From: Escherichia coli
GTDB taxonomy: Bacteria; Pseudomonadota; Gammaproteobacteria; Enterobacterales; Enterobacteriaceae
Length of the DNA stretch: 64,000 nt
Assembly (NCBI RefSeq): GCF_003018115.1
Contig: NZ_CP027457.1
Reading direction: 5' to 3' (one strand)
The notes below the pieces were generated by a model that was not told where the DNA came from, did not search any database, and was given only the letters and a program-made list of their open reading frames with translations. Numbering within the stretch: the first letter of the stretch is position 1; every line of letters begins with the position of its first letter. Below are positions 30,628-45,790 of the stretch, in pieces. The position numbers and the translations under genes were made by a program.

Positions 30628-30879
30628 TTATTCTCCTGAAAAAGCAGAAAAGCCAGCTTTTATTCCGATCTCTTTCAATGCCTGTAATGAAGTGACAAAC
30701 TCACCTTCGCGCAAGATAAATCCGTCCGTGACCCGAGCATCCACAAAATTAATTAACGCAGCCCCATTCTTTCGCAAACACATAATGCGGTAATGACTAA
30801 CAAGATTTCCATTTTCAACGCACACAGCATAGAGGCCATCTTCACAAAAAATTTTACGCAGTTCTTCGATGTTCATCAT
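30628..30879 (-). CDS. Small prophage protein, possibly Rem
   Basis: 83 aa MMNIEELRKIFCEDGLYAV; position between ydfU and hokD; identity recalled with low certainty. Confidence 0.45.
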   Translation of the reverse strand: MMNIEELRKIFCEDGLYAVCVENGNLVSHYRIMCLRKNGAALINFVDARVTDGFILREGEFVTSLQALKEIGIKAGFSAFSGE

Positions 30880-32899: not shown

Positions 32900-34600
32900 A
32901 ACTATTTCTGTAGTCACTTTTGTGGGGACAGTCCACAAAACTGCCAACTTCCGCTTCTTGCTCTTAGCGGACATTAGCATAGGCTATTTACCATAACGCC
33001 TCATTACGCGCACCGCCCAGACTGACTCAGCGCGTTTCTGGCATATCCCCGGTAAAACAAGTAACAAACCACCCGAAAATGAACACCAGAAACGCGACTT
33101 AAGAATCTACCCTATGAATGGATATGCACTCAACCGAATCGATCTTGGTTTCAATCTTTTTTATCGGGATCAGGCTTCTTTTTAGGTAACTTCGGGGGCT
33201 TAACTTGCTGATGACTTTGCGTTCGGCGCGTAAGCCAGGGATGGTCAGCTTTAGGTTTAACATAGTATTTTGAGCGTAAATCAATACGGGCATTATCCAC
33301 TCGTTCATGGACACTCTTTTCATCATCCAGTGGTATAGGCTCCGGGCCATCAACATACTTTTCCCAGCCCAGCGCTTTCCCGTCATACAGAACGTTAATT
33401 TCACCGTCAAAGTTCTCGCATACAGTAACAACCGAATGCCTAAGTCGATATCCCCGGCCCTCACTGCGTACCTGAAACGCACTGCTTTTGTACTGGAAAG
33501 TGAGATTTTTAGACAGAACGCGCTTCGCCTGTAGGCTGAAGATATAACCCAGTTCCTCTTCAGAATGGTGCACATCAAGATGAGCATTATCAGTAGTACG
33601 AGGCGACGTAGCGAACCGGTTGTTATAGGCTTCAATAAAGGTCGGCAACCATGCATTTGCTGTTTCAATATCACTGATATTCTGAAGCCGCATTTCTTTG
33701 ACCAGCCTGTCCTGTAGTGTCTGATTGGCGCGCTCTACCCGCCCTTTTGCCTGCGGGCTGTTGGCATGGATTGGCTCGATGCCCAGTGTCTTTATCGCAC
33801 GAGTGAACTGGGTCAGCTCACCTTCCCGCTCTGGGTTATTTACCCTGAATATACTGTGTCTATCAGAGTAGAGAGCGAGCGGTACGCCATGATCATTAAG
33901 GTAACCCCGGAGGGTTTCCATGTAAGCCCGGGTTGTTTCAGCAGGCACAAAACGCAACGCCATCAACGCACTGGTGGCATCATCAATGAAAACGATCAGT
34001 GTACATCTGGGGCCTCGATTTTCAAACCAGTCATGAGGTGAGCCATCAATCTGGATCAGTTCACCGTAAGATGGTCGTCGCATGCGGCGTTGATATATAC
34101 GGGCAATTTTACGACGGCGTTCACGCCATAACCCCTCTTCTATCATCCACTTTCTGAGAGTTTCAACGGATAAAGATAAACCGTGTATCTCGCGCAATTT
34201 TTCGCACGCAAACGTAGGTCCAAAATCAGCGTAACGGCCTTTGAGGAGTGAAATTACTGTTGCTCTGAATTCAGTAGAAAAGGAATTATTAGGACGCTTT
34301 CCACGTCGGTGGGAAACCAGACCAGAAGGCCCTTCATTTCTATACCGTTGCACCAGACGTTTAACCTGCCGAATAGAAATGCCAATGCGTGCCGCAGCTT
34401 GTTCCTGAATAATCTGAAGTCGGTGGAGTTCCTTATGACTCATCGTAACAGTCTCTTTGATCATGAAAAATCCCCCAGAGAATTGTCTGGGGACATTTTA
34501 GAATGGTTCAAAGGGGACATTACAGCTTGGTGTTAACAATAGCCTGCTTCTCCGTGCCTTTCGGCACGTAAGAGGCTAACCTACATGTGTCTAGCATGAA
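32900..34600 (-). mobile_element. Insertion sequence carrying a single DDE transposase (IS481/ISNCY-type); ends not resolved
   Basis: Single 437-aa transposase ORF; terminal inverted repeats could not be assigned by eye. Confidence 0.55.
33151..34464 (-). CDS. DDE transposase with N-terminal HTH and integrase-core (rve) catalytic domain
   Basis: 437 aa; D (IQIDGS), D (YSDRHS), E (GRVERANQ) triad spacing typical of rve. Confidence 0.85.
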   Translation of the reverse strand: MIKETVTMSHKELHRLQIIQEQAAARIGISIRQVKRLVQRYRNEGPSGLVSHRRGKRPNNSFSTEFRATVISLLKGRYADFGPTFACEKLREIHGLSLSVETLRKWMIEEGLWRERRRKIARIYQRRMRRPSYGELIQIDGSPHDWFENRGPRCTLIVFIDDATSALMALRFVPAETTRAYMETLRGYLNDHGVPLALYSDRHSIFRVNNPEREGELTQFTRAIKTLGIEPIHANSPQAKGRVERANQTLQDRLVKEMRLQNISDIETANAWLPTFIEAYNNRFATSPRTTDNAHLDVHHSEEELGYIFSLQAKRVLSKNLTFQYKSSAFQVRSEGRGYRLRHSVVTVCENFDGEINVLYDGKALGWEKYVDGPEPIPLDDEKSVHERVDNARIDLRSKYYVKPKADHPWLTRRTQSHQQVKPPKLPKKKPDPDKKD

Positions 34601-34798
34601 ATTGGCCTCAGATTAATGTTAAGCGTCTTGCAGGACGCGTAATGTTAACTGGGGCTTTTCTCTATCTGCCGTTGGTGTCCATGCCCGAGGCAGATAGCCT
34701 CAAGCACCCGCAGTCATTCTACTTAACTAAGATTTCCCCGCAAACCGTTTTTGTCCAGCACAGTAAATATCCAACTAAACCAATGGAGTTCGCTGTAT

Positions 34799-34978
34799 TT
34801 ACCGCCAGTATTCAATGCACATGACCGCCATGAACACCCCTAAAAAAAGGGCATTTATATATCCAAATATTAATATCAAAACATCAACTTTTTCCATATA
34901 CCTTGCTGTGAAGATGATGGGCATACATGATGCGAACAACCAGAACGCAACAAACAAAAACTGCAATGCGTTTTTCAT
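34799..34978 (-). CDS. Candidate small two-TM membrane protein (59 aa)
   Basis: AGGAGG Shine-Dalgarno 4 nt before ATG; MKNALQFLFVAFWLFASCMPIIF...; no homolog recognised. Confidence 0.35.
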   Translation of the reverse strand: MKNALQFLFVAFWLFASCMPIIFTARYMEKVDVLILIFGYINALFLGVFMAVMCIEYWR

Positions 34979-35652
34979 TATTCCTCCTACAATCAATGTG
35001 CAATTACATTTAAACACACCTCAATTTGGCCGGACATATAAATATCTAAACCAGAAAAAATCACTTACATAGCGTTACAAACTCTTTAGTCTAAAGGTTC
35101 ATCGTAAAACATTCCCCATACTTATCAGTCCGTTCCGCGCCAGGTAGCTCATTGCCTTATCTGGCAACCTGTAATCAGGTTTCCGCTTTTTCAGTTGGCT
35201 GGTCGTTTAACCGACATAGTTAATCCATTAATCTAGTTGCCGGATGTTGGTGGATTTTCGCGTTTTAGTTGTTCATAAAAGTGCACAGCTTTAACCAGTT
35301 CTTCTGATGTAACTGGGACTGGTGAGGCAGTGAATAAGGCCTGAATTTGATAGTTCGGCCTGTCGTTACAATCCTCTTTTTTCGGTACATATTTCCAGTC
35401 ACCAGACCACTACTTCCCCTGAAAGTCCGTAACGCCTTTTTTCACGTAGCGATATCGCCATGCCACTGGTTTTGCTTGCCCCGCCGTTTCATGCCCTTCC
35501 TGATAATTAATCTCGCTCATTCATCGCCCCACTCATCACAATATGCTTCGACCGGAGTTTTTCCCGCTTCATAGTCATCACGCTAGGATTCGACATCAGC
35601 AGCACTTCCACCGCGTAACTCACCATAGTCCATTAATAGTTCATCCCGCTCT

Positions 35653-35660
35653 TCAAAACT
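35653..35660. repeat. 8-bp target site duplication TCAAAACT (left copy) of IS66-family element
   Basis: Identical 8-mer immediately outside both inverted repeats. Confidence 0.7.
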
Positions 35661-35741
35661 GTAAGCGTCGTCTCAGCACCGTCTGGCAGATCCTGAAATT
35701 CCTGAGAGAATAGTGGACACCAAATATGGTGGACGCAATCC

Positions 35742-36146
35742 ATGAAATCATTAACCGCAGTGCGTAAAAAAAGCCCTAATTATCCCGTTGAGTTCAAAAT
35801 CAAAATGGTTGAACTCTCGCATCGACCAGAGATCTCCGTAGCGCAACTCGCTCGTGAGCATGGGATCAACGATAATTTGCTGTTCAAGTGGCGCCAGTAC
35901 TGGCGCGAAGGAAAACTACGTCCTCCTTCAACAACAGAAAACAACGTGCCTGAGCTGCTCCCGATAACACTTGATGCCGAAGATGTTGTCCCTACAACCT
36001 CCCCCCGGTCACAACCTGTAGCTGCTGCGACACCTGAATCACTCAATATCAGCTGTGAAGTGACGTTCCGGCACGGATCACTCCGTCTGAATGGTGCCAT
36101 CAGCGAAAATATCCTGAACCTGCTGATACGGGAGCTCAAACGTTGA
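35742..36146 (+). CDS. IS66-family accessory protein TnpA (orf1)
   Basis: 134 aa, HTH-like N-terminus, first ORF of element. Confidence 0.85.
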   Translation: MKSLTAVRKKSPNYPVEFKIKMVELSHRPEISVAQLAREHGINDNLLFKWRQYWREGKLRPPSTTENNVPELLPITLDAEDVVPTTSPRSQPVAAATPESLNISCEVTFRHGSLRLNGAISENILNLLIRELKR

Positions 36147-36490
36147 TCCCATTACCATCAGGGACAAAGATCTGGCTGGTCGCTGGCATCACCGATATGA
36201 GAAACGGCTTCAACGGCCTGGCGGCAAAGGTGCAGACGACGCTGAAAGACGATCCGATGTCAGGTCACGTTTTTATCTTCCGTGGGCGTAATGGCAGTCA
36301 GGTAAAGCTCCTCTGGTCTACCGGCGATGGACTGTGTCTGCTGACCAAACGGCTGGAGCGCGGCCGCTTCGCCTGGCCGTCAGCCCGGGATGGCAAAGTG
36401 TTCCTCACACCGGCACAGCTGGCGATGCTGCTGGAAGGTATCGACTGGCGGCAGCCTAAAAGACTGCTTACGTCCCTGACTATGTTGTAA
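36143..36490 (+). CDS. IS66-family TnpB (orf2)
   Basis: 115 aa, 4-nt overlap with tnpA. Confidence 0.85.
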   Translation: MIPLPSGTKIWLVAGITDMRNGFNGLAAKVQTTLKDDPMSGHVFIFRGRNGSQVKLLWSTGDGLCLLTKRLERGRFAWPSARDGKVFLTPAQLAMLLEGIDWRQPKRLLTSLTML

Positions 36491-36538
36491 GCCTCTTTAT
36501 CCTGGTCGACGCTGAATGAGCCTGGTAATATACCCGGT

Positions 36539-38074
36539 ATGAGCAGCTCACTTCCTGACGATATCAATGCACTGAAACGTCTCCTTGCCGAACAGGAGGC
36601 GCTGAACCGTGCCCTGCAGGAAAAGCTGAACGAGCGTGAACGCGAAATAGACCATCTGCAGGCACAGCTGGATAAGCTGCGCCGGATGAACTTCGGCAGC
36701 CGCTCGGAAAAAGTCTCCCGTCGTATCGCACAGATGGAAGCTGACCTGAAGGCACTTCAGAAAGAAAGTGATACCCTTACCGGTCGGGTTGACGACCCGG
36801 CCGTGCAGCGCCCGCTGCGTCAAACCCGCACCCGCAAACCGTTCCCCGAATCACTCCCCCGCGATGAAAAACGGCTGCTGCCGGCAGCGTCATGCTGCCC
36901 GGAATGTGGAGGCTCGCTGAGCTATCTGGGTGAGGATGCCGCCGAACAGCTGGAGCTGATGCGCAGCGCCTTCCGGGTTATCCGGACTGTACGTGAAAAG
37001 CATGCCTGTACTCAGTGCGATGCCATCGTGCAGGCCCCCGCGCCTTCACGGCCCATCGAGCGGGGTATCGCAGGACCGGGGCTGCTGGCCCGCGTGCTGA
37101 TCTCAAAGTATGCAGAGCACACCCCGCTGTACCGCCAGTCTGAAATGTACGGCCGCCAGGGCGTGGAGCTGAGTCGTTCACTGCTGTCGGGCTGGGTGGA
37201 TGCATGCTGCCGGCTACTGTCACCGCTGGAAGAAGCGCTTCAGGACTATGTGCTGACTGACGGTAAGCTCCATGCTGATGACACGCCTGTCCCGGTGCTG
37301 TTGCCAGGCAATAAGAAAACGAAGACCGGGCGGTTATGGACCTACGTTCGTGACGACCGTAACGCCGGGTCAACGCTGGCGCCGGCGGTGTGGTTCGCTT
37401 ACAGCCCGGACAGAAAAGGCATCCATCCGCAGACCCATCTTGCGGGGTTCAGTGGTGTACTGCAGGCGGATGCATACGCCGGGTTCAACGAGCTGTACCG
37501 GGATGGCCGGATAACGGAAGCCGCCTGTTGGGCTCACGCCCGCCGTAAAATCCACGATGTGCACGTTCGCACCCCGTCAGCCCTGACGGAGGAAGCGCTG
37601 AAACGGATCGGCGAACTGTACGCCATCGAGGCAGAGATAAGGGGAATGACGGCGGAGCAGCGCCTTGCCGAACGTCAGTTGAAAACGAAACCGCTGCTGA
37701 AATCCCTGGAAAGCTGGCTGCGTGAAAAGATGAAAACCCTGTCGCGACACTCAGAACTGGCGAAAGCGTTCGCATACGCCCTGAACCAGTGGCCGGCGCT
37801 GACGTACTATGCAGATGATGGCTGGGCTGAGGCGGACAATAACATCGCTGAAAATGCGTTGCGGATGGTCAGTCTGGGCCGCAAAAACTACCTGTTCTTC
37901 GGTTCGGATCATGGAGGAGAGCGGGGAGCGCTGCTGTACAGCCTGATCGGGACGTGCAAACTGAACGGAGTGGAGCCAGAAAGCTACCTCCGCTATGTCC
38001 TTGACGTCATAGCCGACTGGCCGATAAACCGGGTCGGCGAACTGCTCCCCCTGGCGCGTAGCACTGCCGACTGA
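36539..38074 (+). CDS. IS66-family transposase TnpC (orf3)
   Basis: 511 aa, N-terminal leucine zipper, Cys-x2-C zinc motif, DDE core. Confidence 0.9.
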
Positions 38075-38115
38075 ATAACACATCCCCGTCAATACGGTTC
38101 TTGCTGCACGCTTAC

Positions 38116-38123
38116 TCAAAACT
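38116..38123. repeat. 8-bp target site duplication TCAAAACT (right copy)
   Basis: Matches left copy at 35653-35660. Confidence 0.7.
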
Positions 38124-38593
38124 GATGTTATATTTAGCTGAACAAAAATCAGCCACTTTGTTCTTCCTCATCGTCTTTTATTTCGTGGTATGAGTAATTG
38201 CAGTAGTTAAAGAAAATTTCTTATGCTCCGTCATGAATTTCCTCAGGTGTTGCGTCATCGTCCACTTCGAATACATCCTCAAAATCTCCACCAGCTATTC
38301 CCGTTTCAATAATAATTTTGAACTTTCGCATTTCACTACCGCCCTTTCGGGCGGCCTCCTGATGTTCTGAGGGTGCAGAAATCCATCCGGTTAAGGATTA
38401 AATTTTATTTACAGAACTGAATTTAATTATTCAGATATACGTATCTGTAGCCTTACGAATCTACTCACTGGATGCCTCTTTCATAAAAATAATCCAGTGG
38501 GTTTTATCGTTTTTTCCCTGTTCGTTGACAGATAACAGGTTTTCTGTCTGTCAGTGCCAGAATCTGGCTTACCGGTATTTGCGTTTCATTCCA

Positions 38594-38950
38594 TTAAAAA
38601 ATCAGAACGCCGTGCGGCCTCAACACCCGAAAGGCTTCTTTAAATCTCTGTCGCGAATCATCACGCCAGGCATCTTTATTCAGCCGTCCATATTTCTTTC
38701 CCATCCAGGCGTTATCACCAACACTCTCAAGATGCGGAGGGTCTAATACAACCATCGAAAAAGATGCGTCTGCAAATGATAATGCACGAAAATCTGCGAT
38801 AATGTCAGGGCTGATAATCAAGCGTCTCCCATTGCGTAATGTGTATCCTTCTTTTCTGATATCGCTGAATATCGCCCGTTCGTCAGACTTATCGAACCAG
38901 AACATGCGGCTGCCACAGCACATATCAAGAATGGTTGCCGGTGCACTCAC
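38594..38950 (-). pseudogene. Truncated SAM-dependent methyltransferase-like ORF (motif I then DPPH)
   Basis: 118 aa is too short for a full Rossmann MTase; in-frame TAA followed by about 32 further sense codons. Confidence 0.4.
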
Positions 38951-39369
38951 TGCGCCACGTCCTGAAAATTACCCTGATAGAAAGCCAGTATGCGCTGCAT
39001 AACTTCGCTCTTCCGGCACTCGCGACAGATTATGTTTAGGCGACTGTCGTAGCGACGTATTTCTCCGTCAGGTGATGACCAGATAAGGTCCGGATCAACC
39101 ACAGCAGGTTTCTTCACCTTTGCCCTCGAGAGTTTTTTGCGGGCGTTTTGCCAGTCCTTACGCGCCTGTTCAGAGGGGAATAACCCGTAGCCGGAGTTGT
39201 ATACATCGCCACTGGCTACCAGCTCTCTGGCAAGAACGCTCATCAGATATCTAGTCGCACCTGTTTTAGCTTCCAGTTGCCGTAACGTCTCACGGCCGCT
39301 CTGGCGCACGAGTTCCACCACCTGCCATTTAATTTTTTCCCGCTCTTCTTGTGTAAAAACTTTTGCCAC
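38947..39369 (-). CDS. Hypothetical 140-aa prophage early-operon protein
   Basis: Translationally coupled (4-nt overlap) to downstream MTase-like ORF; no family recognised. Confidence 0.45.
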   Translation of the reverse strand: MAKVFTQEEREKIKWQVVELVRQSGRETLRQLEAKTGATRYLMSVLARELVASGDVYNSGYGLFPSEQARKDWQNARKKLSRAKVKKPAVVDPDLIWSSPDGEIRRYDSRLNIICRECRKSEVMQRILAFYQGNFQDVAQ

Positions 39370-39409
39370 AAGTCCCCCTTAAAATTACCTCATGACCTGA
39401 AATCAACAC

Positions 39410-40429
39410 TTATCCTCTGAAACCAGGCGGAATTTCTGTATCCGGTTCAGAAATATGATTAACACAACGCTGTACAGGTGAACGTCCCAGGCGGATGACC
39501 AGTTCGTCCCATTTTTCGCGGAGCTTTGACGGGCTCATGATGTTTTTTACCCAGAATGGATCTCGCTGAACCCGACCAAACATTTCGCAAATTTGTCTGT
39601 GGCTTCTGCCATCCAGCATCCGCATTGTGCGCACGTCATTGGCCCAGGCAGTCCAGTTAGGCTCTTTTGGTCGCATGATCTCGCCATCATCACTGGCTGC
39701 CTGTTCGTAGAGACCCACGATCCGCCCCCAGATCCACTGCGCACACGCCAAATCCTCCCTGCTACCCCACTGGCGTTTTTTCGCACTAAACACAACCGCG
39801 TCGGAGTTCCGGGTTAAAAAATCCTGTTCAGTCGTCTGCGGGTCCGGTTGCGAAGCTTCCGGACGAAAAGTGTTTTTATTCTCTGTAGTAATCTCTGTTG
39901 TATTCTCTGTAAGATCATCAGGCCATTTTGACCCGATGACATTGGGTCGTTTTGAACCAATGGAGCGTTTCATTTTGACCTCTTCCATCGTGTCATTTTG
40001 ACCTGATGGAGCGGCGCATTTTGAACCGATGGATTCGCTCAATTTGCCACCATCTAAAAGCTCGCTCCCATAGTTGATCGTGTAGAAATTGGTCATATCG
40101 CGCTTTGATTTATTGAGCTTTTCACAACGCAAAAGCCCCAGCGTTTTCAGACTTGCAAACGCGCGCTTTAACGTTGACTCTGACCAGAATGGGAACTGTT
40201 CCAGCCATTGTTCCGTTGTGTTATAAATCCAGCGAACACCATCACATTCCATGCCGGAGTTGGTATCTCTCAACCAGTAGTGCAGTTGTTGCAAAACAAT
40301 GGCTTCGTTTAAGCCAATTTTCATTGCCAGCTGCGTGTTTATAACCAGTGGACGTTCAGCAAAAAGAAGGCTCATAATTCCATCCAGCTTTTTGTTGGTA
40401 TTGCTGTCGATACGCAAGTTTGAAAGCAA
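39410..40429 (-). CDS. Replication initiator / replisome organiser (lambda O-like), start uncertain
   Basis: N-terminal HTH-like domain; gene contains five direct iteron repeats encoding (S/V)IGSK repeats; sits in early-right operon after the cro-like dicC. Confidence 0.65.
   Translation of the reverse strand: MLSNLRIDSNTNKKLDGIMSLLFAERPLVINTQLAMKIGLNEAIVLQQLHYWLRDTNSGMECDGVRWIYNTTEQWLEQFPFWSESTLKRAFASLKTLGLLRCEKLNKSKRDMTNFYTINYGSELLDGGKLSESIGSKCAAPSGQNDTMEEVKMKRSIGSKRPNVIGSKWPDDLTENTTEITTENKNTFRPEASQPDPQTTEQDFLTRNSDAVVFSAKKRQWGSREDLACAQWIWGRIVGLYEQAASDDGEIMRPKEPNWTAWANDVRTMRMLDGRSHRQICEMFGRVQRDPFWVKNIMSPSKLREKWDELVIRLGRSPVQRCVNHISEPDTEIPPGFRG
39920..40035. repeat. Candidate replication origin iterons: five direct repeats of about 19 bp (consensus CATTTTGAMCNGATGG) at about 23-bp spacing, AT-rich region adjacent
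   Basis: Repeats read directly in sequence inside the O-like gene, as for lambda ori. Confidence 0.6.
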
Positions 40430-40877
40430 TTGCTTTTTCTATAAGTTCGTCAGTTTCACGATCCACTACGGCAGGATCAGCAAAAAGCAGTCCGGACTCC
40501 ACCACATCGCCATATTCTTTGTTTAACCCGGCGATCATGCACGTGATGCTTTTTCCGTCAGTAATTTCACGATACAACCTGAAATCATTAATCCGGATAG
40601 CCTCCATAATTGCAGGCACTAGCGCCGTGAACTTTTCACGCTTATCCCTGGTGTCGATAGCCTTCCAGCGTTCAAATATCTTCACTCGATTAACGCCAAG
40701 CGCTCGCTGATCAATCGCGCCACCTTCATATGTGACACGCTGAACATCGATGTTCGGGCGCTCTTTCAAAGCCCAGAATGCTTCAGTGATTAATATCGTC
40801 GCCTGCTCCTGTGTCATTCCTGGTCGACATATCCAGGCATCCAGAGCCTCACGAGCCTGTTCAGGAGTGATTTTCAT
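40356..40877 (-). CDS. Hypothetical 173-aa protein directly downstream of dicC (possibly YdaT-like)
   Basis: Position equivalent to ydaT/cII in lambdoid early-right operons; family call from memory only. Confidence 0.45.
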   Translation of the reverse strand: MKITPEQAREALDAWICRPGMTQEQATILITEAFWALKERPNIDVQRVTYEGGAIDQRALGVNRVKIFERWKAIDTRDKREKFTALVPAIMEAIRINDFRLYREITDGKSITCMIAGLNKEYGDVVESGLLFADPAVVDRETDELIEKAIAFKLAYRQQYQQKAGWNYEPSFC

Positions 40878-41091
40878 TGTTCAACCGCCCCGCCCGCTTC
40901 GTCTTACGATATTCATCATAAACTTTGGGATCATACTGAAGCTCCCCGCCAGATGCCTCCTGTAGACGCATCGCGCGACCTTCGGGAACTAAATCCCCTT
41001 TCCAGCTATAAAGCGAAGCCAAACGAATACCTGCTGCTTGTGCAAGTTTTGTTTTTGAACCGAAATACAAAAGAGCGTCAGTTTTAAGCAT
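40861..41091 (-). CDS. dicC: Cro-like repressor DicC
   Basis: 76 aa MLKTDALLYFGSKTKLAQAAGIRLASLYSW. Confidence 0.9.
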   Translation of the reverse strand: MLKTDALLYFGSKTKLAQAAGIRLASLYSWKGDLVPEGRAMRLQEASGGELQYDPKVYDEYRKTKRAGRLNNENHS

Positions 41092-41106
41092 TTAAAACAC
41101 CTTTAT

Positions 41107-41126
41107 TGTTAGTCATAACTAACAAG
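41107..41126. promoter_or_regulatory. Candidate DicA/DicC operator (imperfect palindrome TGTTAGTCATAACTAACA) in the dicC-dicA divergent promoter region
   Basis: Near-palindrome; related motif recurs at 41653-41670 and at the dicA start. Confidence 0.45.
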
Positions 41127-41174
41127 ATAGATGTTAACAAAAACATAGTCAATACGATTTAGCATTAGCTAACT

Positions 41175-41582
41175 ATGGAAACAAAAAATTTAACTATCGG
41201 CGAACGCATCAGGTATCGTCGGAAAAACCTCAAACACACCCAAAGGTCTCTTGCTAAAGCCCTGAAAATCTCCCATGTGTCTGTATCACAATGGGAACGG
41301 GGTGATAGTGAACCTACAGGGAAGAACCTTTTTGCCCTCAGCAAAGTATTGCAATGCTCACCAACATGGATTCTATTTGGCGATGAAGACAAGCAACCAA
41401 CACCACCTGTTGAGAAGCCAGTTGCCTTATCCCCCAAAGAACTAGAGCTCCTTGAGCTGTTTAATGCACTGCCAGAATCAGAACAGGATACCCAGCTCGC
41501 CGAAATGCGAGCTCGAGTAAAAAACTTCAATAAACTCTTTGAAGAATTACTAAAAGCCCGTCAGCGGACAAATAAAAGATAA
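41175..41582 (+). CDS. dicA: Repressor DicA (HTH_XRE, cI-like)
   Basis: 135 aa METKNLTIGERIRYRRKNLKHTQRSLAKALKISHVSVSQWERGD. Confidence 0.95.
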   Translation: METKNLTIGERIRYRRKNLKHTQRSLAKALKISHVSVSQWERGDSEPTGKNLFALSKVLQCSPTWILFGDEDKQPTPPVEKPVALSPKELELLELFNALPESEQDTQLAEMRARVKNFNKLFEELLKARQRTNKR

Positions 41583-41652
41583 CATCATCAATGAGTTATC
41601 TTTTACCACATCAATTATGTTAGCTATAGCATACAAAATCACTTGACCGATA

Positions 41653-41670
41653 TGTTAGTCATGGCTAATC
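41653..41670. promoter_or_regulatory. Second operator-like palindrome (TGTTAGTCATGGCTAATC) upstream of the ydfA-dicB operon
   Basis: Same half-site motif as 41107-41126; lies between dicA stop and ydfA. Confidence 0.4.
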
Positions 41671-41748
41671 TTGTTTGCATCAACACACCGCACGGTGTTC
41701 TCAGCAAACAGTTCCGCTACCCCAGCGTTAAGGGGAAATGAGGTCAGC

Positions 41749-41904
41749 ATGGATACTATCGATCTTGGCAACAACGAATCTCTGGTGTACGGCGTGTTTC
41801 CAAACCAGGACGGCACGTTCACCGCAATGACGTATACCAAAAGCAAAACGTTTAAAACCGAAAATGGTGCCCGTCGCTGGCTGGAAAGAAACTCAGGTGA
41901 GTGA
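41749..41904 (+). CDS. ydfA: YdfA
   Basis: ORF track 41671-41904 trimmed to MDTIDLGNNESLVYGVF, 51 aa. Confidence 0.75.
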   Translation: MDTIDLGNNESLVYGVFPNQDGTFTAMTYTKSKTFKTENGARRWLERNSGE

Positions 41905-41905
41905 T

Positions 41906-42034
41906 ATGGATTTCGACACAATCATGGAAAAGGCTTACGAAGAATACTTCGAAGGCCTTGCCGAAGGCGAAGAAGCTCTCAGCTTCAGTGAGTTTAAACA
42001 GGCGCTTTCCAGTTCGGCAAAATCTAACGGCTGA
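41906..42034 (+). CDS. ydfB: YdfB
   Basis: Hand-translated 42 aa MDFDTIMEKAYEEYFEGLAEGEEALSFSEFKQALSSSAKSNG. Confidence 0.7.
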   Translation: MDFDTIMEKAYEEYFEGLAEGEEALSFSEFKQALSSSAKSNG

Positions 42035-42063
42035 TAAGCGAAACAGCACCGCGAGGAATCAGT

Positions 42064-42282
42064 ATGCAGAAACGAGAACCCGTCATCATCGCGCCAGACT
42101 ATACCGATGATGAACTTTATGAGTGGATGCGCCAGAAAATTAATGCAGCGCAGGATCTGAAATGGGCTAATGAAGCCAGGGCTAAGCAGGCTGAAAATCT
42201 GTCCGCTCTGGAGCAGGATATCACCAATCTGGAAAAAGCAGCGGCATTAAGCATTGCCAGAATGATTACATACCCGCGTTAG
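42064..42282 (+). CDS. ydfC: YdfC
   Basis: 72 aa MQKREPVIIAPDYTDDELYEWMRQKINAAQDLKWANEARAKQAENL. Confidence 0.85.
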   Translation: MQKREPVIIAPDYTDDELYEWMRQKINAAQDLKWANEARAKQAENLSALEQDITNLEKAAALSIARMITYPR

Positions 42283-42620
42283 TAGCTAATCAACAAAGCT
42301 AAGGTTAGTAATTAAGGAGTTCTCCACGGGTGAGGTGGAGTGCGTGCGCCGGACACGGGTGCGCATCCGGAACTGACAGTTTACTGAAAGGATATTTCCC
42401 TGAAAAGTCAGACCATAACGCGAAAGCGCACGGCGAGGTAGCTGGTTCATAGATAGCCTGTCGTTAAATTTTCGTCGACCGTGCGCTTCCGGTTGTGGCA
42501 ACCCGCGAAATGGCGCGGCGGTAAGTATGGCGGGGTTATTCCTTCCCCGTTGAGGACACCGGGTTGTCAGGTTGACCATACGCTTAAGTGACAACCCCGC
42601 TGCAACGCCCTCTGTTATCA

Positions 42621-42679
42621 ATTTTCTGGTGACGTTTGGCGGTATCAGTTTTACTCCGTGACTGCTCTGCCGCCCTTTT
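42621..42679 (+). ncRNA. dicF: DicF small regulatory RNA (antisense inhibitor of ftsZ translation)
   Basis: Sequence TTTCTGGTGACGTTTGGCGGTATCAGTTTTACTCCGTGACTGCTCTGCCGCCCTTTTT with 3' terminator hairpin, between ydfC and dicB. Confidence 0.75.
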
Positions 42680-42849
42680 TAAAGTGAATTTTGTGATGTG
42701 GTGAATGCGGCTGAGCGCACGCGGAACAGTTAAAACCAAAAACAGTGTTATGGGTGGATTCTCTGTATCCGGCGTTAATTGTTAACTAGTTAACGTCACC
42801 TGGAGGCACCAGGCACTGCATCACAAAATTCATTGTTGAGGACGCGATA

Positions 42850-43038
42850 ATGAAAACGTTATTACCAAACGTTAATACGTCTGAAGGTTGTTTTGAAATT
42901 GGTGTCACTATCAGTAACCCAGTATTTACTGAAGATGCCATTAACAAGAGAAAACAAGAACGGGAGCTATTAAATAAAATATGCATTGTTTCAATGCTGG
43001 CTCGTTTACGTCTGATGCCAAAAGGATGTGCACAATGA
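42850..43038 (+). CDS. dicB: Cell division inhibitor DicB
   Basis: 62 aa MKTLLPNVNTSEGCFEIGVTISNPVFTEDAINKRKQERELLNK. Confidence 0.9.
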   Translation: MKTLLPNVNTSEGCFEIGVTISNPVFTEDAINKRKQERELLNKICIVSMLARLRLMPKGCAQ

Positions 43039-43226
43039 ATTCAGCATTTGTGCTTGTTCTGACAGTTTTTCTTGTTTCCGGAGAGCCAGTTGATATTGCA
43101 GTCAGTGTTCACAGGACAATGCAGGAGTGTATGACTGCAGCAACCGAACAGAAAATTCCCGGTAACTGTTACCCGGTCGATAAAGTTATTCACCAGGATA
43201 ATATCGAAATCCCGGCAGGTCTTTAA
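43035..43226 (+). CDS. ydfD: YdfD (small membrane-anchored lysis-type protein)
   Basis: ORF track 42981-43226 trimmed to MNSAFVLVLTVFLVSG, 63 aa; ATGA overlap with dicB stop. Confidence 0.75.
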   Translation: MNSAFVLVLTVFLVSGEPVDIAVSVHRTMQECMTAATEQKIPGNCYPVDKVIHQDNIEIPAGL

Positions 43227-43318
43227 AACAGTTCCGTAATAAATATCCGGTTTCATTCTTATATGCCAGCAATGGCAGGGATTTGTTCATCCTTAAATCT
43301 GTCATGAGGTTAAAACAA

Positions 43319-45790
43319 ATGAGTAAAGTCTTTATTTGCGCCGCTATTCCTGACGAACTGGCAACAAGGGAAGAAGGCGCTGTGGCTGTAGCCACAGCCA
43401 TTGAAGCTGGCGACGAACGCCGTGCTCGAGCAAAATTTCACTGGCAATTCCTGGAACATTATCCGGCTGCTCAGGACTGCGCTTATAAATTTATTGTCTG
43501 CGAGGATAAACCTGGCATACCCCGCCCTGCCCTCGATTCATGGGATGCTGAATATATGCAGGAAAACCGCTGGGATGAGGAGTCTGCTTCTTTTGTCCCG
43601 GTTGAGACTGAATCCGATCCGATGAACGTCACTTTTGACAAGCTGGCCCCTGAAGTACAGAACGCTGTCATGGTTAAGTTCGACACATGTGAAAACATCA
43701 CCGTTGATATGGTTATTAGCGCACAGGAATTGTTGCAGGAAGACATGGCAACATTCGACGGACATATCGTTGAAGCGTTGATGAAAATGCCAGAAGTTAA
43801 CGCCATGTATCCGGAGCTTAAGTTGCACGCCATTGGGTGGGTTAAGCATAAATGTATTCCTGGTGCTAAATGGCCCGAAATTCAGGCAGAGATGCGCATC
43901 TGGAAAAAACGTCGCGAAGGTGAACGCAAGGAAACCGGAAAATACACGTCTGTTGTTGATCTCGCCCGCGCCAGAGCCAATCAACAGTACACTGAAAATT
44001 CAACAGGAAAAATCAGCCCGGTCATTGCTGCCATTCATCGCGAATACAAGCAGACATGGAAAACACTGGATGACGAACTGGCCTACGCTCTCTGGCCTAG
44101 TGATGTGGATGCCGGAAACATTGACGGCAGCATCCATCGCTGGGCAAAAAAAGAAGTTATCGACAACGACCGCGAAGACTGGAAGCGTATCTCGGCATCA
44201 ATGCGCAAACAGCCTGATGCCCTTCGCTACGACCGCCAAACTATTTTTGGCCTTGTCCGTGAGCGTCCGATCGACATTCACAAAGATCCCGTAGCACTGA
44301 ACAAATATATCTGCGAATACCTGACGACAAAGGGCGTGTTTGAGAATGAAGAAACAGACCTGGGCACTGTTGATGTTCTCCAGTCATCAGAAACACAAAC
44401 TGATGCAGTGGAAACTGAGGTATCTGATATCCCAAAAAATGAAACCGCGCCGGAAGCTGAACCATCTGTAGAGCGTGAGGGGCCGTTCTATTTCCTCTTC
44501 GCAGATAAGGACGGAGAAAAATACGGTCGCGCAAACAAACTCTCTGGTCTGGATAAGGCACTGGCTGCTGGCGCCACTGAAATCACAAAAGAAGAATATT
44601 TTGCCCGAAAAAATGGCACATACACGGGCTTACCGCAAAATGTAGATACCGCTGAAGATTCAGAACAACCAGAGCCGATAAAAGTTACCGCTGACGAAGT
44701 AAACAAAATTATGCAGGCAGCCAATATCAGCCAGCCTGACGCCGATAAGTTGCTTGCTGCATCACGTGGTGAATTTGTTGAAGGGATTAGTGACCCGAAT
44801 GATCCGAAATGGGTTAAGGGGCTCCAGACCCGCGATTCTGTGAACCAGAACCAGCATGAATCGGAACGGAACTACCAAAAAGCGGAACAAAACAGTCCAA
44901 ATGCGTTACAAAACGAGCCAGAAACGAAACAGCCTGAACCAGTAGCGCAACAGGAAGTGGAAAAAGTCTGCACCGCCTGCGGTCAGACCGGCGGCGGCAA
45001 CTGCCCTGATTGTGGCGCGGTGATGGGCGACGCAACATACCAAGAAACATTCGATGAAGAGTATCAGGTTGAAGTTCAGGAAGATGATCCGGAGGAAATG
45101 GAAGGCGCTGAACATCCACACAAGGAGAACACTGGCGGCAATCAGCATCACAATAGCGATAATGAAACTGGCGAGACGGCAGATCACCCAATTAAGGTGA
45201 ACGGTCATCACGAAATCACATCCACCAGCAGGACGTGTGACCATCTAATGATCGACCTTGAAACCATGGGAAAAAATCCTGATGCCCCGATCATCTCAAT
45301 AGGTGCAATATTTTTCGATCCGCAAACCGGAGATATGGGACCGGAATTTAGTAAGACTATCGATCTGGAAACTGCTGGCGGAGTCATTGATCGGGACACC
45401 ATTAAATGGTGGCTTAAGCAATCACGCGAAGCGCAATCTGCCATTATGACCGATGAAATCCCGTTAGATGATGCACTGTTACAATTGCGAGAATTTATCG
45501 ACGAAAACTCCGGTGAATTTTTTGTTCAGGTTTGGGGAAATGGAGCCAACTTCGACAACACGATTTTGCGCCGTTCATACGAACGGCAGGGGATCCCCTG
45601 CCCGTGGCGTTACTACAACGATCGCGATGTACGCACAATCGTTGAGCTGGGGAAAGCCATAGACTTCGATGCCAGAACGGCTATTCCATTCGAAGGTGAG
45701 CGCCATAATGCACTTGATGACGCCCGTTACCAGGCAAAATACGTTTCAGTTATCTGGCAAAAACTGATCCCGAGTCAGGCTGATTCTTAA
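43319..45790 (+). CDS. ydfE: Full-length YdfE-type protein: large N-terminal region, acidic linker, Cys4 zinc ribbon, C-terminal DEDDh 3'-5' exonuclease domain
   Basis: ORF track 43283-45790; start chosen at MSKVFICAAIPDEL after GAGG; Exo I DLE, Exo II GNGANFD, Exo III HNALDDARY motifs in the last ~190 aa. Confidence 0.7.
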   Translation: MSKVFICAAIPDELATREEGAVAVATAIEAGDERRARAKFHWQFLEHYPAAQDCAYKFIVCEDKPGIPRPALDSWDAEYMQENRWDEESASFVPVETESDPMNVTFDKLAPEVQNAVMVKFDTCENITVDMVISAQELLQEDMATFDGHIVEALMKMPEVNAMYPELKLHAIGWVKHKCIPGAKWPEIQAEMRIWKKRREGERKETGKYTSVVDLARARANQQYTENSTGKISPVIAAIHREYKQTWKTLDDELAYALWPSDVDAGNIDGSIHRWAKKEVIDNDREDWKRISASMRKQPDALRYDRQTIFGLVRERPIDIHKDPVALNKYICEYLTTKGVFENEETDLGTVDVLQSSETQTDAVETEVSDIPKNETAPEAEPSVEREGPFYFLFADKDGEKYGRANKLSGLDKALAAGATEITKEEYFARKNGTYTGLPQNVDTAEDSEQPEPIKVTADEVNKIMQAANISQPDADKLLAASRGEFVEGISDPNDPKWVKGLQTRDSVNQNQHESERNYQKAEQNSPNALQNEPETKQPEPVAQQEVEKVCTACGQTGGGNCPDCGAVMGDATYQETFDEEYQVEVQEDDPEEMEGAEHPHKENTGGNQHHNSDNETGETADHPIKVNGHHEITSTSRTCDHLMIDLETMGKNPDAPIISIGAIFFDPQTGDMGPEFSKTIDLETAGGVIDRDTIKWWLKQSREAQSAIMTDEIPLDDALLQLREFIDENSGEFFVQVWGNGANFDNTILRRSYERQGIPCPWRYYNDRDVRTIVELGKAIDFDARTAIPFEGERHNALDDARYQAKYVSVIWQKLIPSQADS

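What the first reader, a model, noticed from the sequence alone, without database searches (positions are those of the whole stretch)
41092..41670. Repeated operator-like palindromes around dicA
TGTTAGTCATAACTAACA (41107-41126) in the dicC-dicA divergent region and TGTTAGTCATGGCTAATC (41653-41670) upstream of ydfA share TTAGTCAT ... CTAA half-sites; a third related copy overlaps the dicA start. These fit DicA repression of both dicC and the ydfABC-dicF-dicB operon.
Basis: partly seen in the sequence, partly recalled or inferred. Interest (0 to 1): 0.3.

Follow-up and report, generated by a model that had tools for sequence, protein, structure and literature searches.

The report
Known DicA/DicC prophage operator sites

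Summary
The palindromes are real and not chance. TTAG-N6-CTAA occurs three times in 64 kb, all within 560 bp around dicA. The window is 99.9% identical to K-12 Qin, with identical operators.

Site 1 is the published operator Oc, which DicA binds in vivo. It overlaps the dicC promoter. Site 2 lies in the spacer and -10 of the ydfA-dicB promoter. The third copy does not overlap the start codon. It covers the -10 hexamer and the start of the leaderless dicA transcript. One study reported that DicA does not bind it, so it more likely serves DicC or is partly a promoter element.

New support comes from about 85 related loci. The operator arms are invariant wherever the recognition helix is the same, and they change together in both intergenic regions in heteroimmune relatives.

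Verdict: observation confirmed, interpretation supported, already known, low interest.

One by-product remains unexplained. The four central bases of each operator are hotspots of recurrent transitions, with diversity of about 0.3 against 0.02 at third codon positions.

The parts
41106..41125 (.). Operator Oc: the 20-bp inverted repeat TTGTTAGTCATAACTAACAA, with 8-bp arms and a 4-bp centre.
   Evidence: Sequence. It is identical to the Oc sequence that Yun et al. cloned and showed to bind DicA in vivo. It is annotated as -8 to +12 of dicCp. Its arms are invariant in 26 distinct variants of this intergenic region.
41124..41152 (-). dicC promoter: -35 TTGACT (41152-41147), 17-nt spacer, -10 TATCTT (41129-41124). 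The transcription start is about 41117, inferred from the published -8..+12 annotation.
   Evidence: Promoter scan. The published description places the -10 overlapping Oc, with an A at -11.
41132..41149 (.). Weak middle site, probably 'Om': TGTTAACAAAAACATAGT. It has a good left arm and a poor right arm, and its centre is 25 bp from both Oc and Oa.
   Evidence: Read from the sequence and located. It is invariant among close relatives. Yun et al. reported no DicA binding to Om alone. Equating this site with the published Om is my inference.
41159..41172 (.). Third copy, probably 'Oa': TTAGCATTAGCTAA. It covers the dicA promoter -10 (TAGCAT, 41160-41165) and the dicA transcription start (41172).
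   Evidence: The dicA TSS lies 3 nt before the ATG (Romero et al. Table S3). A TAnnAT hexamer sits at the same distance from the ATG in heteroimmune relatives, give or take 1 nt.
40861..41091 (-). dicC, a Cro-like regulator of 76 aa.
   Evidence: ORF. Pfam P22_Cro, E = 1.7e-11. RefSeq annotation.
41175..41582 (+). dicA, a repressor of 135 aa with an N-terminal HTH of the P22 C2 type and no S24 cleavage domain.
   Evidence: ORF. Pfam HTH_3, E = 1.3e-16, with HTH families only. Match to the P22 C2 N-terminal domain, E = 8e-20.
41573..41605 (+). Hairpin across the dicA stop codon: 11-nt arms TAAAAGATAAC / GTTATCTTTTA. It is the probable dicA terminator.
   Evidence: Inverted repeat I6, 100% complementary. 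Relatives of the L002 type carry compensatory changes in the stem followed by a T-run.
41618..41635 (.). Distal operator of the left promoter (OL2-like): TGTTAGCTATAGCATACA.
   Evidence: 2 mismatches to TGTTAG-N6-CTAACA. It is present in relatives as TGTTAGYYATRRCAWACA.
41643..41671 (+). Promoter of the ydfABC-dicF-dicB operon (dicBp): -35 TTGACC (41643-41648), 17-nt spacer, -10 TAATCT (41666-41671).
   Evidence: Located by inspection; the consensus scan did not call it. TTGACC is invariant. The same layout is found in four other immunity types, with -10 TAAATT. No mapped TSS was available to me.
41653..41670 (.). Proximal operator of the left promoter (OL1-like): TGTTAGTCATGGCTAATC. Its right arm doubles as the -10 hexamer.
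   Evidence: GTTAG and CTAAT are invariant in relatives. A DicC ChIP-seq peak lies downstream of dicA.
41749..41904 (+). ydfA, the first gene of the repressed operon.
   Evidence: Pfam DUF1391, E = 1.7e-28. Annotation.
42624..42675 (+). DicF small RNA, within the repressed operon.
   Evidence: Rfam RF00039, 76.7 bits.
42850..43038 (+). dicB, the cell-division inhibitor within the repressed operon.
   Evidence: Pfam DicB, E = 1.9e-40.
30631..30879 (-). rem, the antirepressor reported to relieve DicA repression.
   Evidence: tblastn with K-12 Rem gives 100% identity over 83 aa. Function from PMC10448788.

Best explanation
These are the operators of a P22-like immunity switch in a Qin-type prophage.

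DicA has an N-terminal helix-turn-helix domain closely related to that of the P22 C2 repressor. I infer that it binds as a dimer to 18-20-bp sites of the form TGTTAG-YYATRR-CTAACA. The outer TTAG/CTAA arms would be read directly. The centre would set affinity indirectly, as in P22; this step is inferred by analogy.

At Oc (41106-41125), bound DicA sits over -8 to +12 of the dicC promoter. It blocks dicC and stimulates the weak promoter of the leaderless dicA transcript (shown in the literature).

At 41653-41670 the site fills the spacer and -10 of the ydfABC-dicF-dicB promoter, so bound DicA would exclude RNA polymerase. Repression is shown in the literature. The exact site is inferred from the sequence and from covariation. 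The upstream site at 41618-41635 probably assists (inferred).

DicC, the Cro-like partner, uses the same sites (ChIP-seq). I infer that it shuts off dicA through the third copy (41159-41172), which covers the dicA -10 and transcription start in the manner of lambda OR3.

DicA has no RecA-cleavage domain. Release comes through the antirepressor Rem or through DicA instability (literature).
For: Identity of the locus. Gene families. DicA N-terminal domain against P22 C2, E = 8e-20. Motif restricted to this region. dicC promoter overlapping Oc.

In vivo DicA binding to Oc, loss of binding with a single A-to-C change at window position 41121, and activation of dicA. Plasmid copies of dicCp are recovered only with mutations in the DicA site, in two independent studies. 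Reg-Seq recovers the DicA site at dicC. 22-fold derepression of dicBp in a dicA deletion, and Rem as antirepressor. DicC ChIP-seq peaks on both sides of dicA, with a matching palindromic motif. dicA TSS 3 nt before the ATG.

Comparative test done here:
- The arms are invariant among the distinct variants of the two intergenic regions in close relatives (26 distinct for dicC-dicA, 36 for the aligned dicA-ydfA stretch).
- The arms are kept in relatives only 64-73% identical that carry recognition helix SHVSVSQWE, although their flanks have diverged.
- Half-sites change together in both intergenic regions in heteroimmune loci: TTGAG/CTCAA with helix SGSSISLWE, CCTTAG/CTAAGG in the O157 type, AATTAG with helix SDVSxSQWE.
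Against: No direct binding data exist for the two sites at dicBp. Reg-Seq authors state that DicA has only a low-evidence site for dicB and that the binding location is unknown. [quoted passage not shown]

The consensus promoter scan did not call dicBp or dicAp. TAATCT matches only 3 of 6 positions of the -10 consensus. I could not read the original papers of Bejar et al. (1986, 1988), so my Om/Oa labels and the 'three operators' said to lie in the dicA-ydfA spacer could not be matched to their figures. I find only two convincing sites there.
Confidence: 0.88

Rival explanations
1. The third copy (41159-41172) is not a DicA operator. Its conservation reflects its role as the -10 hexamer and start site of the leaderless dicA transcript, and at most it is a DicC (Cro-like) site.
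For: DicA did not bind Oa in vivo. TAGCAT at 41160-41165 sits at exactly -12 to -7 of the published dicA TSS. A TAnnAT hexamer (TAGAAT, TAGTAT, TAAGAT) is kept at the same distance from the ATG, give or take 1 nt, in heteroimmune relatives. In locus L004 this sequence (TTAAGATATCTAAAT) does not match that phage's own TTGAG/CTCAA half-sites. It has 3 mismatches to the 18-mer consensus, which is no better than chance on that measure.
Against: The exact TTAG-N6-CTAA core is one of only three in 64 kb. In every immunity type that uses TTAG/CTAA arms, this site also has TTAG/CTAA. It sits 25 bp from the middle site, which fits an OR3-like position. The two readings are not mutually exclusive.
Confidence: 0.5
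2. The palindromes are DicC (Cro-like) sites only, and DicA acts elsewhere or indirectly.
For: DicC ChIP-seq gives its strongest peaks on both sides of dicA, with a motif that matches TTAG...CTAA.
Against: DicA-dependent repression through the isolated 20-bp Oc, abolished by a single base change, was shown in vivo. A dicA deletion, but not a dicC deletion, derepresses dicBp. Titration toxicity of plasmid-borne dicCp maps to the DicA site.
Confidence: 0.05
3. The similarity between the sites is chance or a by-product of AT-rich promoter sequence.
For: With 3 mismatches allowed, matches to the 18-mer pattern occur at the chance rate across the window.
Against: Three exact TTAG-N6-CTAA cores lie within 560 bp, against 0.5 expected in 64 kb. 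All matches with up to 2 mismatches fall here. The arms are invariant while neighbouring bases vary, and they covary with repressor type.
Confidence: 0.01
4. The sites are mainly targets of the host TetR-family regulator YjdC, which was reported to occupy the dic locus.
For: ChIP-qPCR showed 2- to 12-fold YjdC enrichment at the dic genes, and yjdC interacts genetically with dicA.
Against: No YjdC motif was defined there. The operators covary with the phage repressor and Cro type, not with a host factor.
Confidence: 0.05

Closest known systems
Oc and the companion operators of the dicA-dicC-dicB locus of E. coli K-12 cryptic prophage Qin (Bejar et al. 1986 and 1988; Yun et al. 2012)
   Same: The sequence is the same. 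The window differs from K-12 in this 1-kb stretch by one synonymous base in dicA. Site 1 equals the published 20-bp Oc. The published model of DicA repressing dicC and dicBp, with DicC acting as Cro, applies directly.
   Different: Nothing differs in the operators themselves. The surrounding prophage is more complete than K-12 Qin, with 7,262 extra bp between 33336 and 40597.
Phage P22 immunity region (C2 repressor, Cro, OR/OL operators)
   Same: The DicA HTH domain is the closest sequence relative of the solved P22 C2 N-terminal domain (E = 8e-20), and DicC matches Pfam P22_Cro. Both systems use 18-bp rotationally symmetric sites with conserved outer arms and a variable centre. Both have divergent repressor/cro promoters plus a left promoter carrying the same operators.
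   Different: The arms differ: TTAG/CTAA here, against the P22 arms, which I recall as TTAAG/CTTAA and did not test. DicA has 135 aa and no S24 autocleavage domain, so induction is not by RecA cleavage but through the antirepressor Rem or DicA instability. Only one site per region was shown to bind DicA on its own.
Lambda OR / PRM architecture (established knowledge)
   Same: The operator nearest cro overlaps the cro-side promoter. The repressor activates its own weak promoter. The repressor mRNA is leaderless. The site over the repressor promoter is in the OR3 position.
   Different: Activation was attributed to DicA at Oc, the OR1-like site, rather than at an OR2-like site. Cooperative three-site binding has not been demonstrated.

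Membership tests
Lambdoid (P22-type) immunity operators | Divergently transcribed HTH repressor and Cro-like genes flank the operator region. | tested here: met
   dicC (P22_Cro, E = 1.7e-11) lies on the minus strand and dicA (HTH_3, E = 1.3e-16) on the plus strand, 83 bp apart.
Lambdoid (P22-type) immunity operators | The repressor DNA-binding domain is homologous to a characterised phage repressor. | tested here: met
   DicA residues 7-71 match the P22 C2 N-terminal domain (1adr, 2r1j, 3jxb) with E about 1e-19.
Lambdoid (P22-type) immunity operators | The same rotationally symmetric site is repeated at the divergent promoters and at the early-left promoter. | tested here: met
   Sites at 41107, 41618 and 41653 have up to 2 mismatches to TGTTAG-N6-CTAACA, and there are none elsewhere in 64 kb. 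All three TTAG-N6-CTAA cores fall here.
Lambdoid (P22-type) immunity operators | The operators overlap core promoter elements. | tested here: met
   Oc overlaps the dicCp -10. OL1 spans the spacer and -10 of the TTGACC-17-TAATCT promoter. Oa spans the -10 and +1 of dicAp. The dicBp assignment is by sequence and conservation only.
Lambdoid (P22-type) immunity operators | Operator sequence covaries with repressor and Cro specificity among heteroimmune relatives. | tested here: met
   Five immunity types were compared. Half-sites change together in both intergenic regions and track the recognition helix.
Lambdoid (P22-type) immunity operators | Three adjacent operators per region are bound cooperatively. 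| tested here: inconclusive
   Three evenly spaced candidates lie between dicC and dicA, with centres 25 bp apart, but the middle one is a half-site. Only two candidates were found before ydfA. The literature reports no DicA binding to Om or Oa alone.
Lambdoid (P22-type) immunity operators | Direct, sequence-specific binding of the repressor to each site. | not testable with these tools
   The literature shows in vivo binding to Oc only. The binding location at dicBp is described as unknown.
SOS-cleavable CI/LexA-type repressors | A C-terminal S24 peptidase domain with a cleavage site. | tested here: not met
   Pfam finds only HTH families in DicA. The literature says the Ala-Gly bond is lacking and mitomycin C does not induce.
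Antirepressor-controlled prophage repressors (Gifsy type) | A prophage-encoded antirepressor is present. | tested here: met
   rem lies at 30631-30879, 100% identical to K-12 Rem. Its derepressing activity comes from the literature and was not tested here.

The most novel reading that the evidence does not exclude
The four central bases (positions 7, 8, 11 and 12) of each of the three DicA operators undergo recurrent, independent transitions in natural Qin-type prophages. The rate is far above the synonymous rate, while the arms stay fixed. This would mean one of two things. Operator strength, and with it the set-point of the dicB/dicF switch, may be repeatedly re-tuned by selection. Alternatively, the centre of a repressor-bound palindrome may be a mutational hotspot.
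Probability: 0.35. Interest if true: 0.45.

Novelty: already known. Interest (0 to 1): 0.12.

Why it matters
[quoted passage not shown] Plasmid copies of Oc titrate DicA and kill cells. These operators have been described since the 1980s, and Oc is experimentally validated, so the finding adds nothing new.

This analysis makes two modest additions. Comparative evidence pins the still 'low-evidence' DicA site at the dicB-operon promoter to 41653-41670. The operator centres also turn out to be unusually variable in natural populations.

Tried and rejected
- **Original papers.** I tried to read Bejar et al. 1986, which is not held. The names Om and Oa and the 'three operators' before ydfA could therefore not be matched to the original figures.
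- **Third site at dicBp.** I looked for a third operator near dicBp. TGTTTGCATCAACACACC at 41672-41689 was considered and rejected, because its positions vary freely among close relatives.
- **Promoter scan.** The consensus scan found only dicCp. dicBp and dicAp had to be assigned from conservation and from a published TSS.
- **RNA element.** A permissive Rfam scan of 40800-43300 found only DicF and a sub-threshold STnc100 match, so no known RNA element explains the palindromes.
- **Leader fold.** The 5' leader of the ydfA transcript does not fold better than shuffled sequence (z = -0.32).
- **Conversion between repeats.** I tested whether the hypervariable centres arise from conversion between the two arms or between operators. 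There was no consistent association: complementary positions were unassociated, and of twelve between-operator tests only one had nominal p = 0.010, uncorrected for multiple testing.
- **More data.** A DNA-pattern scan of viral contigs returned essentially the contigs already in hand. The metagenome scan gave 15 further contigs that replicated the pattern.

Full report
**What is in the sequence**

The region contains dicC (40861-41091, minus strand; Pfam P22_Cro), dicA (41175-41582; HTH_3), ydfA (41749-41904; DUF1391), ydfB, ydfC, DicF RNA (42624-42675) and dicB (42850-43038). Over window 40800-41800 the DNA is 100% identical to E. coli ATCC 8739 and 99.9% identical to K-12 MG1655. The only difference from K-12 is a synonymous base in dicA at 41342. 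All regulatory DNA discussed here is therefore identical to the well-studied K-12 Qin locus.

**Checking the observation**

- TGTTAGTCATAACTAACA lies at 41107-41124. The full inverted repeat is 41106-41125.
- TGTTAGTCATGGCTAATC lies at 41653-41670, as stated.
- The 'third copy' is TTAGCATTAGCTAA at 41159-41172. It ends 2 nt before the dicA ATG, so it does not overlap the start codon.

The pattern TTAG-N6-CTAA occurs three times in the 64-kb window, against 0.5 expected, and all three hits are these sites. TGTTAG-N6-CTAACA with up to 2 mismatches occurs only at 41107, 41618 and 41653. At 3 mismatches the pattern matches at the chance rate (18 found, 19.7 expected). On that measure alone the third copy is not distinguishable from background. 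It stands out through its exact core and its conservation.

**What the literature already shows**

- Yun et al. 2012 (PMC3441716) define Oc as TTGTTAGTCATAACTAACAA. DicA represses through the isolated site in vivo. One A-to-C change, at window position 41121 in the CTAA arm, abolishes this. Oc overlaps the -10 of the dicC promoter, and DicA at Oc activates dicA.
- The same paper reports that two further sequence-predicted sites, Om and Oa, did not bind DicA in the assay (data not shown there).
- High-copy clones of the dicC promoter are recovered only with mutations in the DicA site. Yun et al. saw this, and a massively parallel reporter library saw it independently. That library annotates the site at -8 to +12 of dicCp. 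This places the dicC transcription start near 41117 and agrees with the scan's TTGACT-17-TATCTT promoter.
- Reg-Seq recovered the DicA site at dicC. For dicB it states that the DicA site is low-evidence and that its location is unknown.
- Ragunathan et al. 2023 (PMC10448788) show 22-fold derepression of dicBp when dicA is deleted. They also show relief of repression by the antirepressor Rem and a bistable DicA/DicC switch. They restate that each intergenic region carries three operator sequences.
- Romero et al. 2014 list dicA among five leaderless E. coli mRNAs, with a TSS 3 nt before the ATG. In the window this is 41172. TAGCAT at 41160-41165 therefore occupies exactly -12 to -7, and the third copy spans the -10 and +1 of the dicA promoter.

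**Independent test: comparison of relatives**

I compared four other E. coli loci and 80 viral contigs that encode DicA-like repressors.

Among close relatives (DicA at least 90% identical), TGTTAG and CTAAC of Oc are invariant in 26 distinct variants of the dicC-dicA spacer. GTTAG, the central AT, CTAAT of the proximal left site and the TTGACC -35 are invariant across 36 distinct variants of the dicA-ydfA stretch. The bases around them vary.

More distant relatives (64-73% identity) that keep the recognition helix SHVSVSQWE have diverged flanks. They still carry TTAG-YYATRR-CTAA in the dicC-dicA spacer, and all but one (L061, where a different sequence follows dicA) also carry it downstream of dicA.

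Heteroimmune relatives change their half-sites together in both regions:

| Relative | Recognition helix | Site before the repressor gene | Sites after the repressor gene |
|---|---|---|---|
| L004 | SGSSISLWE | ATTGAGTTTTCTCAAT | TTGAGTTTTCTCAT and ATGAGAAAACTAAAT |
| O157 type (L005, L071-L085) | AHVTISQWE | CCTTAGATTTTCCTAAGG | GCTTAGGTTTTTCTACAC and CTTAGGYTATTCTAAAT |
| L063, L069 | SDVSxSQWE | AATTAG...CTAATA | TTAGC(A/C)ATRGCTAAT at the promoter, plus TTAGCTTGATCTAA just upstream |

In every type the promoter-proximal site lies 6-8 nt after a TTGAC-like -35, and its right arm runs into TAATCT or TAAATT. The imperfect right arm of site 2 is thus explained by its second role as the -10 hexamer. 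This comparison pins the DicA/DicC site at the dicB-operon promoter to 41653-41670. It is the main support I can add to a location that databases treat as unknown.

**Mechanism**

DicA residues 7-71 are the closest sequence relative of the solved P22 C2 DNA-binding domain (E = 8e-20). P22 repressor binds as a dimer to 18-bp symmetric sites. Its helix-turn-helix contacts the outer bases. The central four base pairs are not contacted but set affinity (PMC4267663). By analogy, DicA reads the TTAG/CTAA arms.

- At Oc it blocks dicC and stimulates dicA (shown in the literature).
- At 41653-41670 it would occlude the spacer and -10 of dicBp. Repression is shown in the literature. The site itself is inferred.
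- The site at 41618-41635, with its centre 35 bp upstream, probably assists (inferred).
- The third copy sits where lambda OR3 sits. A protein bound there would shut off dicA. Because DicA did not bind it alone and DicC represses dicA, DicC is the more likely ligand. This step is inferred, and I give it about even odds against the simpler view that the sequence is mostly a promoter element.

DicA has no S24 cleavage domain. rem is present at 30631-30879.

**Comparison with known systems**

This is the known Qin DicA/DicC operator set. It works like the P22 and lambda immunity regions. It fails the SOS-cleavable repressor criterion, and a cooperative three-site array is not demonstrated. There is no novelty in the finding itself.

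**By-product: hypervariable operator centres**

The analysis used 52 close relatives.

- Positions 7, 8, 11 and 12 of each of the three 18-bp operators are transition polymorphisms at intermediate frequency.
- They need up to 8-9 changes each on a tree of dicC plus dicA. Third codon positions need at most 2, although the tree was built from the coding sites themselves, which favours those sites.
- They show all four allele combinations for neighbours 1-5 bp apart. No nearby pair in coding DNA does so.
- They vary among loci whose 639 coding bases are identical.

Within-clade diversity:

| Class of site | Nucleotide diversity |
|---|---|
| Operator centres | 0.27-0.32 |
| Third codon positions | 0.02 |
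| Other intergenic bases | 0.025-0.042 |
| Operator arms | 0.002-0.013 |

There is no consistent association between complementary positions or between operators. One of the twelve between-operator tests reached nominal p = 0.010, uncorrected for multiple testing. Conversion between repeats therefore does not explain the pattern. Fifteen metagenome contigs replicate it, with a single transversion. I cannot tell whether this reflects repeated selection on operator strength or a mutational hotspot.

Noticed in passing
window 41113-41118, 41624-41629 and 41659-41664; loci L002, L006-L059 and L138-L152: The four central bases of each DicA operator are hotspots of recurrent transitions. Within-clade diversity is about 0.3, against 0.02 at third codon positions. 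Up to 8-9 independent changes per site are needed on a gene tree. Neighbouring sites show all four allele combinations, and the sites vary among loci with identical coding DNA. The arms are invariant. The pattern was replicated in 15 metagenome contigs and remains unexplained.
   Followed up: yes
window 41573-41605: A perfect 11-nt inverted repeat (TAAAAGATAAC / GTTATCTTTTA) straddles the dicA stop codon. Relatives of the L002 type carry compensatory stem changes (AACGCA...TGCGTT) followed by a T-run, so it is probably the dicA terminator.
   Followed up: partly
window 41678-41698: The block CATCAA...ACACCGCACGGTGT lies just after the predicted dicBp start. It is conserved in E. coli relatives of all immunity types except the more distant SHVSVSQWE/SDVS loci, so the mosaic boundary of the immunity module lies at about the transcription start. 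The palindrome could form a 5' hairpin on the ydfA transcript, but the leader does not fold better than shuffled sequence.
   Followed up: partly
window 33336-40597: The window carries 7,262 bp that K-12 Qin lacks at the ydfW/ydfX junction. These include a full-length YdaT-family gene (40356-40877) and a replication-protein-like ORF (39410-40429). K-12 ydfX is therefore a deletion remnant. The immunity region is 99.8% identical to phage record PhiR42_1 from ECOR13.
   Followed up: partly
window 43283-45790: An uninterrupted 835-aa ORF lies downstream of ydfD. At the same place K-12 has an exonuclease pseudogene truncated by IS2.
   Followed up: no
window 42673-42882: A sub-threshold Rfam match to sRNA STnc100 (33.7 bits against a gathering score of 47, E = 5e-5) lies between DicF and the start of dicB.
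   Followed up: no
loci L064-L070, first 30 bases after the repressor stop codon: In these more distant relatives, the terminator-like hairpin after the repressor gene is built from operator half-sites in outward orientation (TAGCTAAC...GTTAGCTA followed by a T-run).
   Followed up: no
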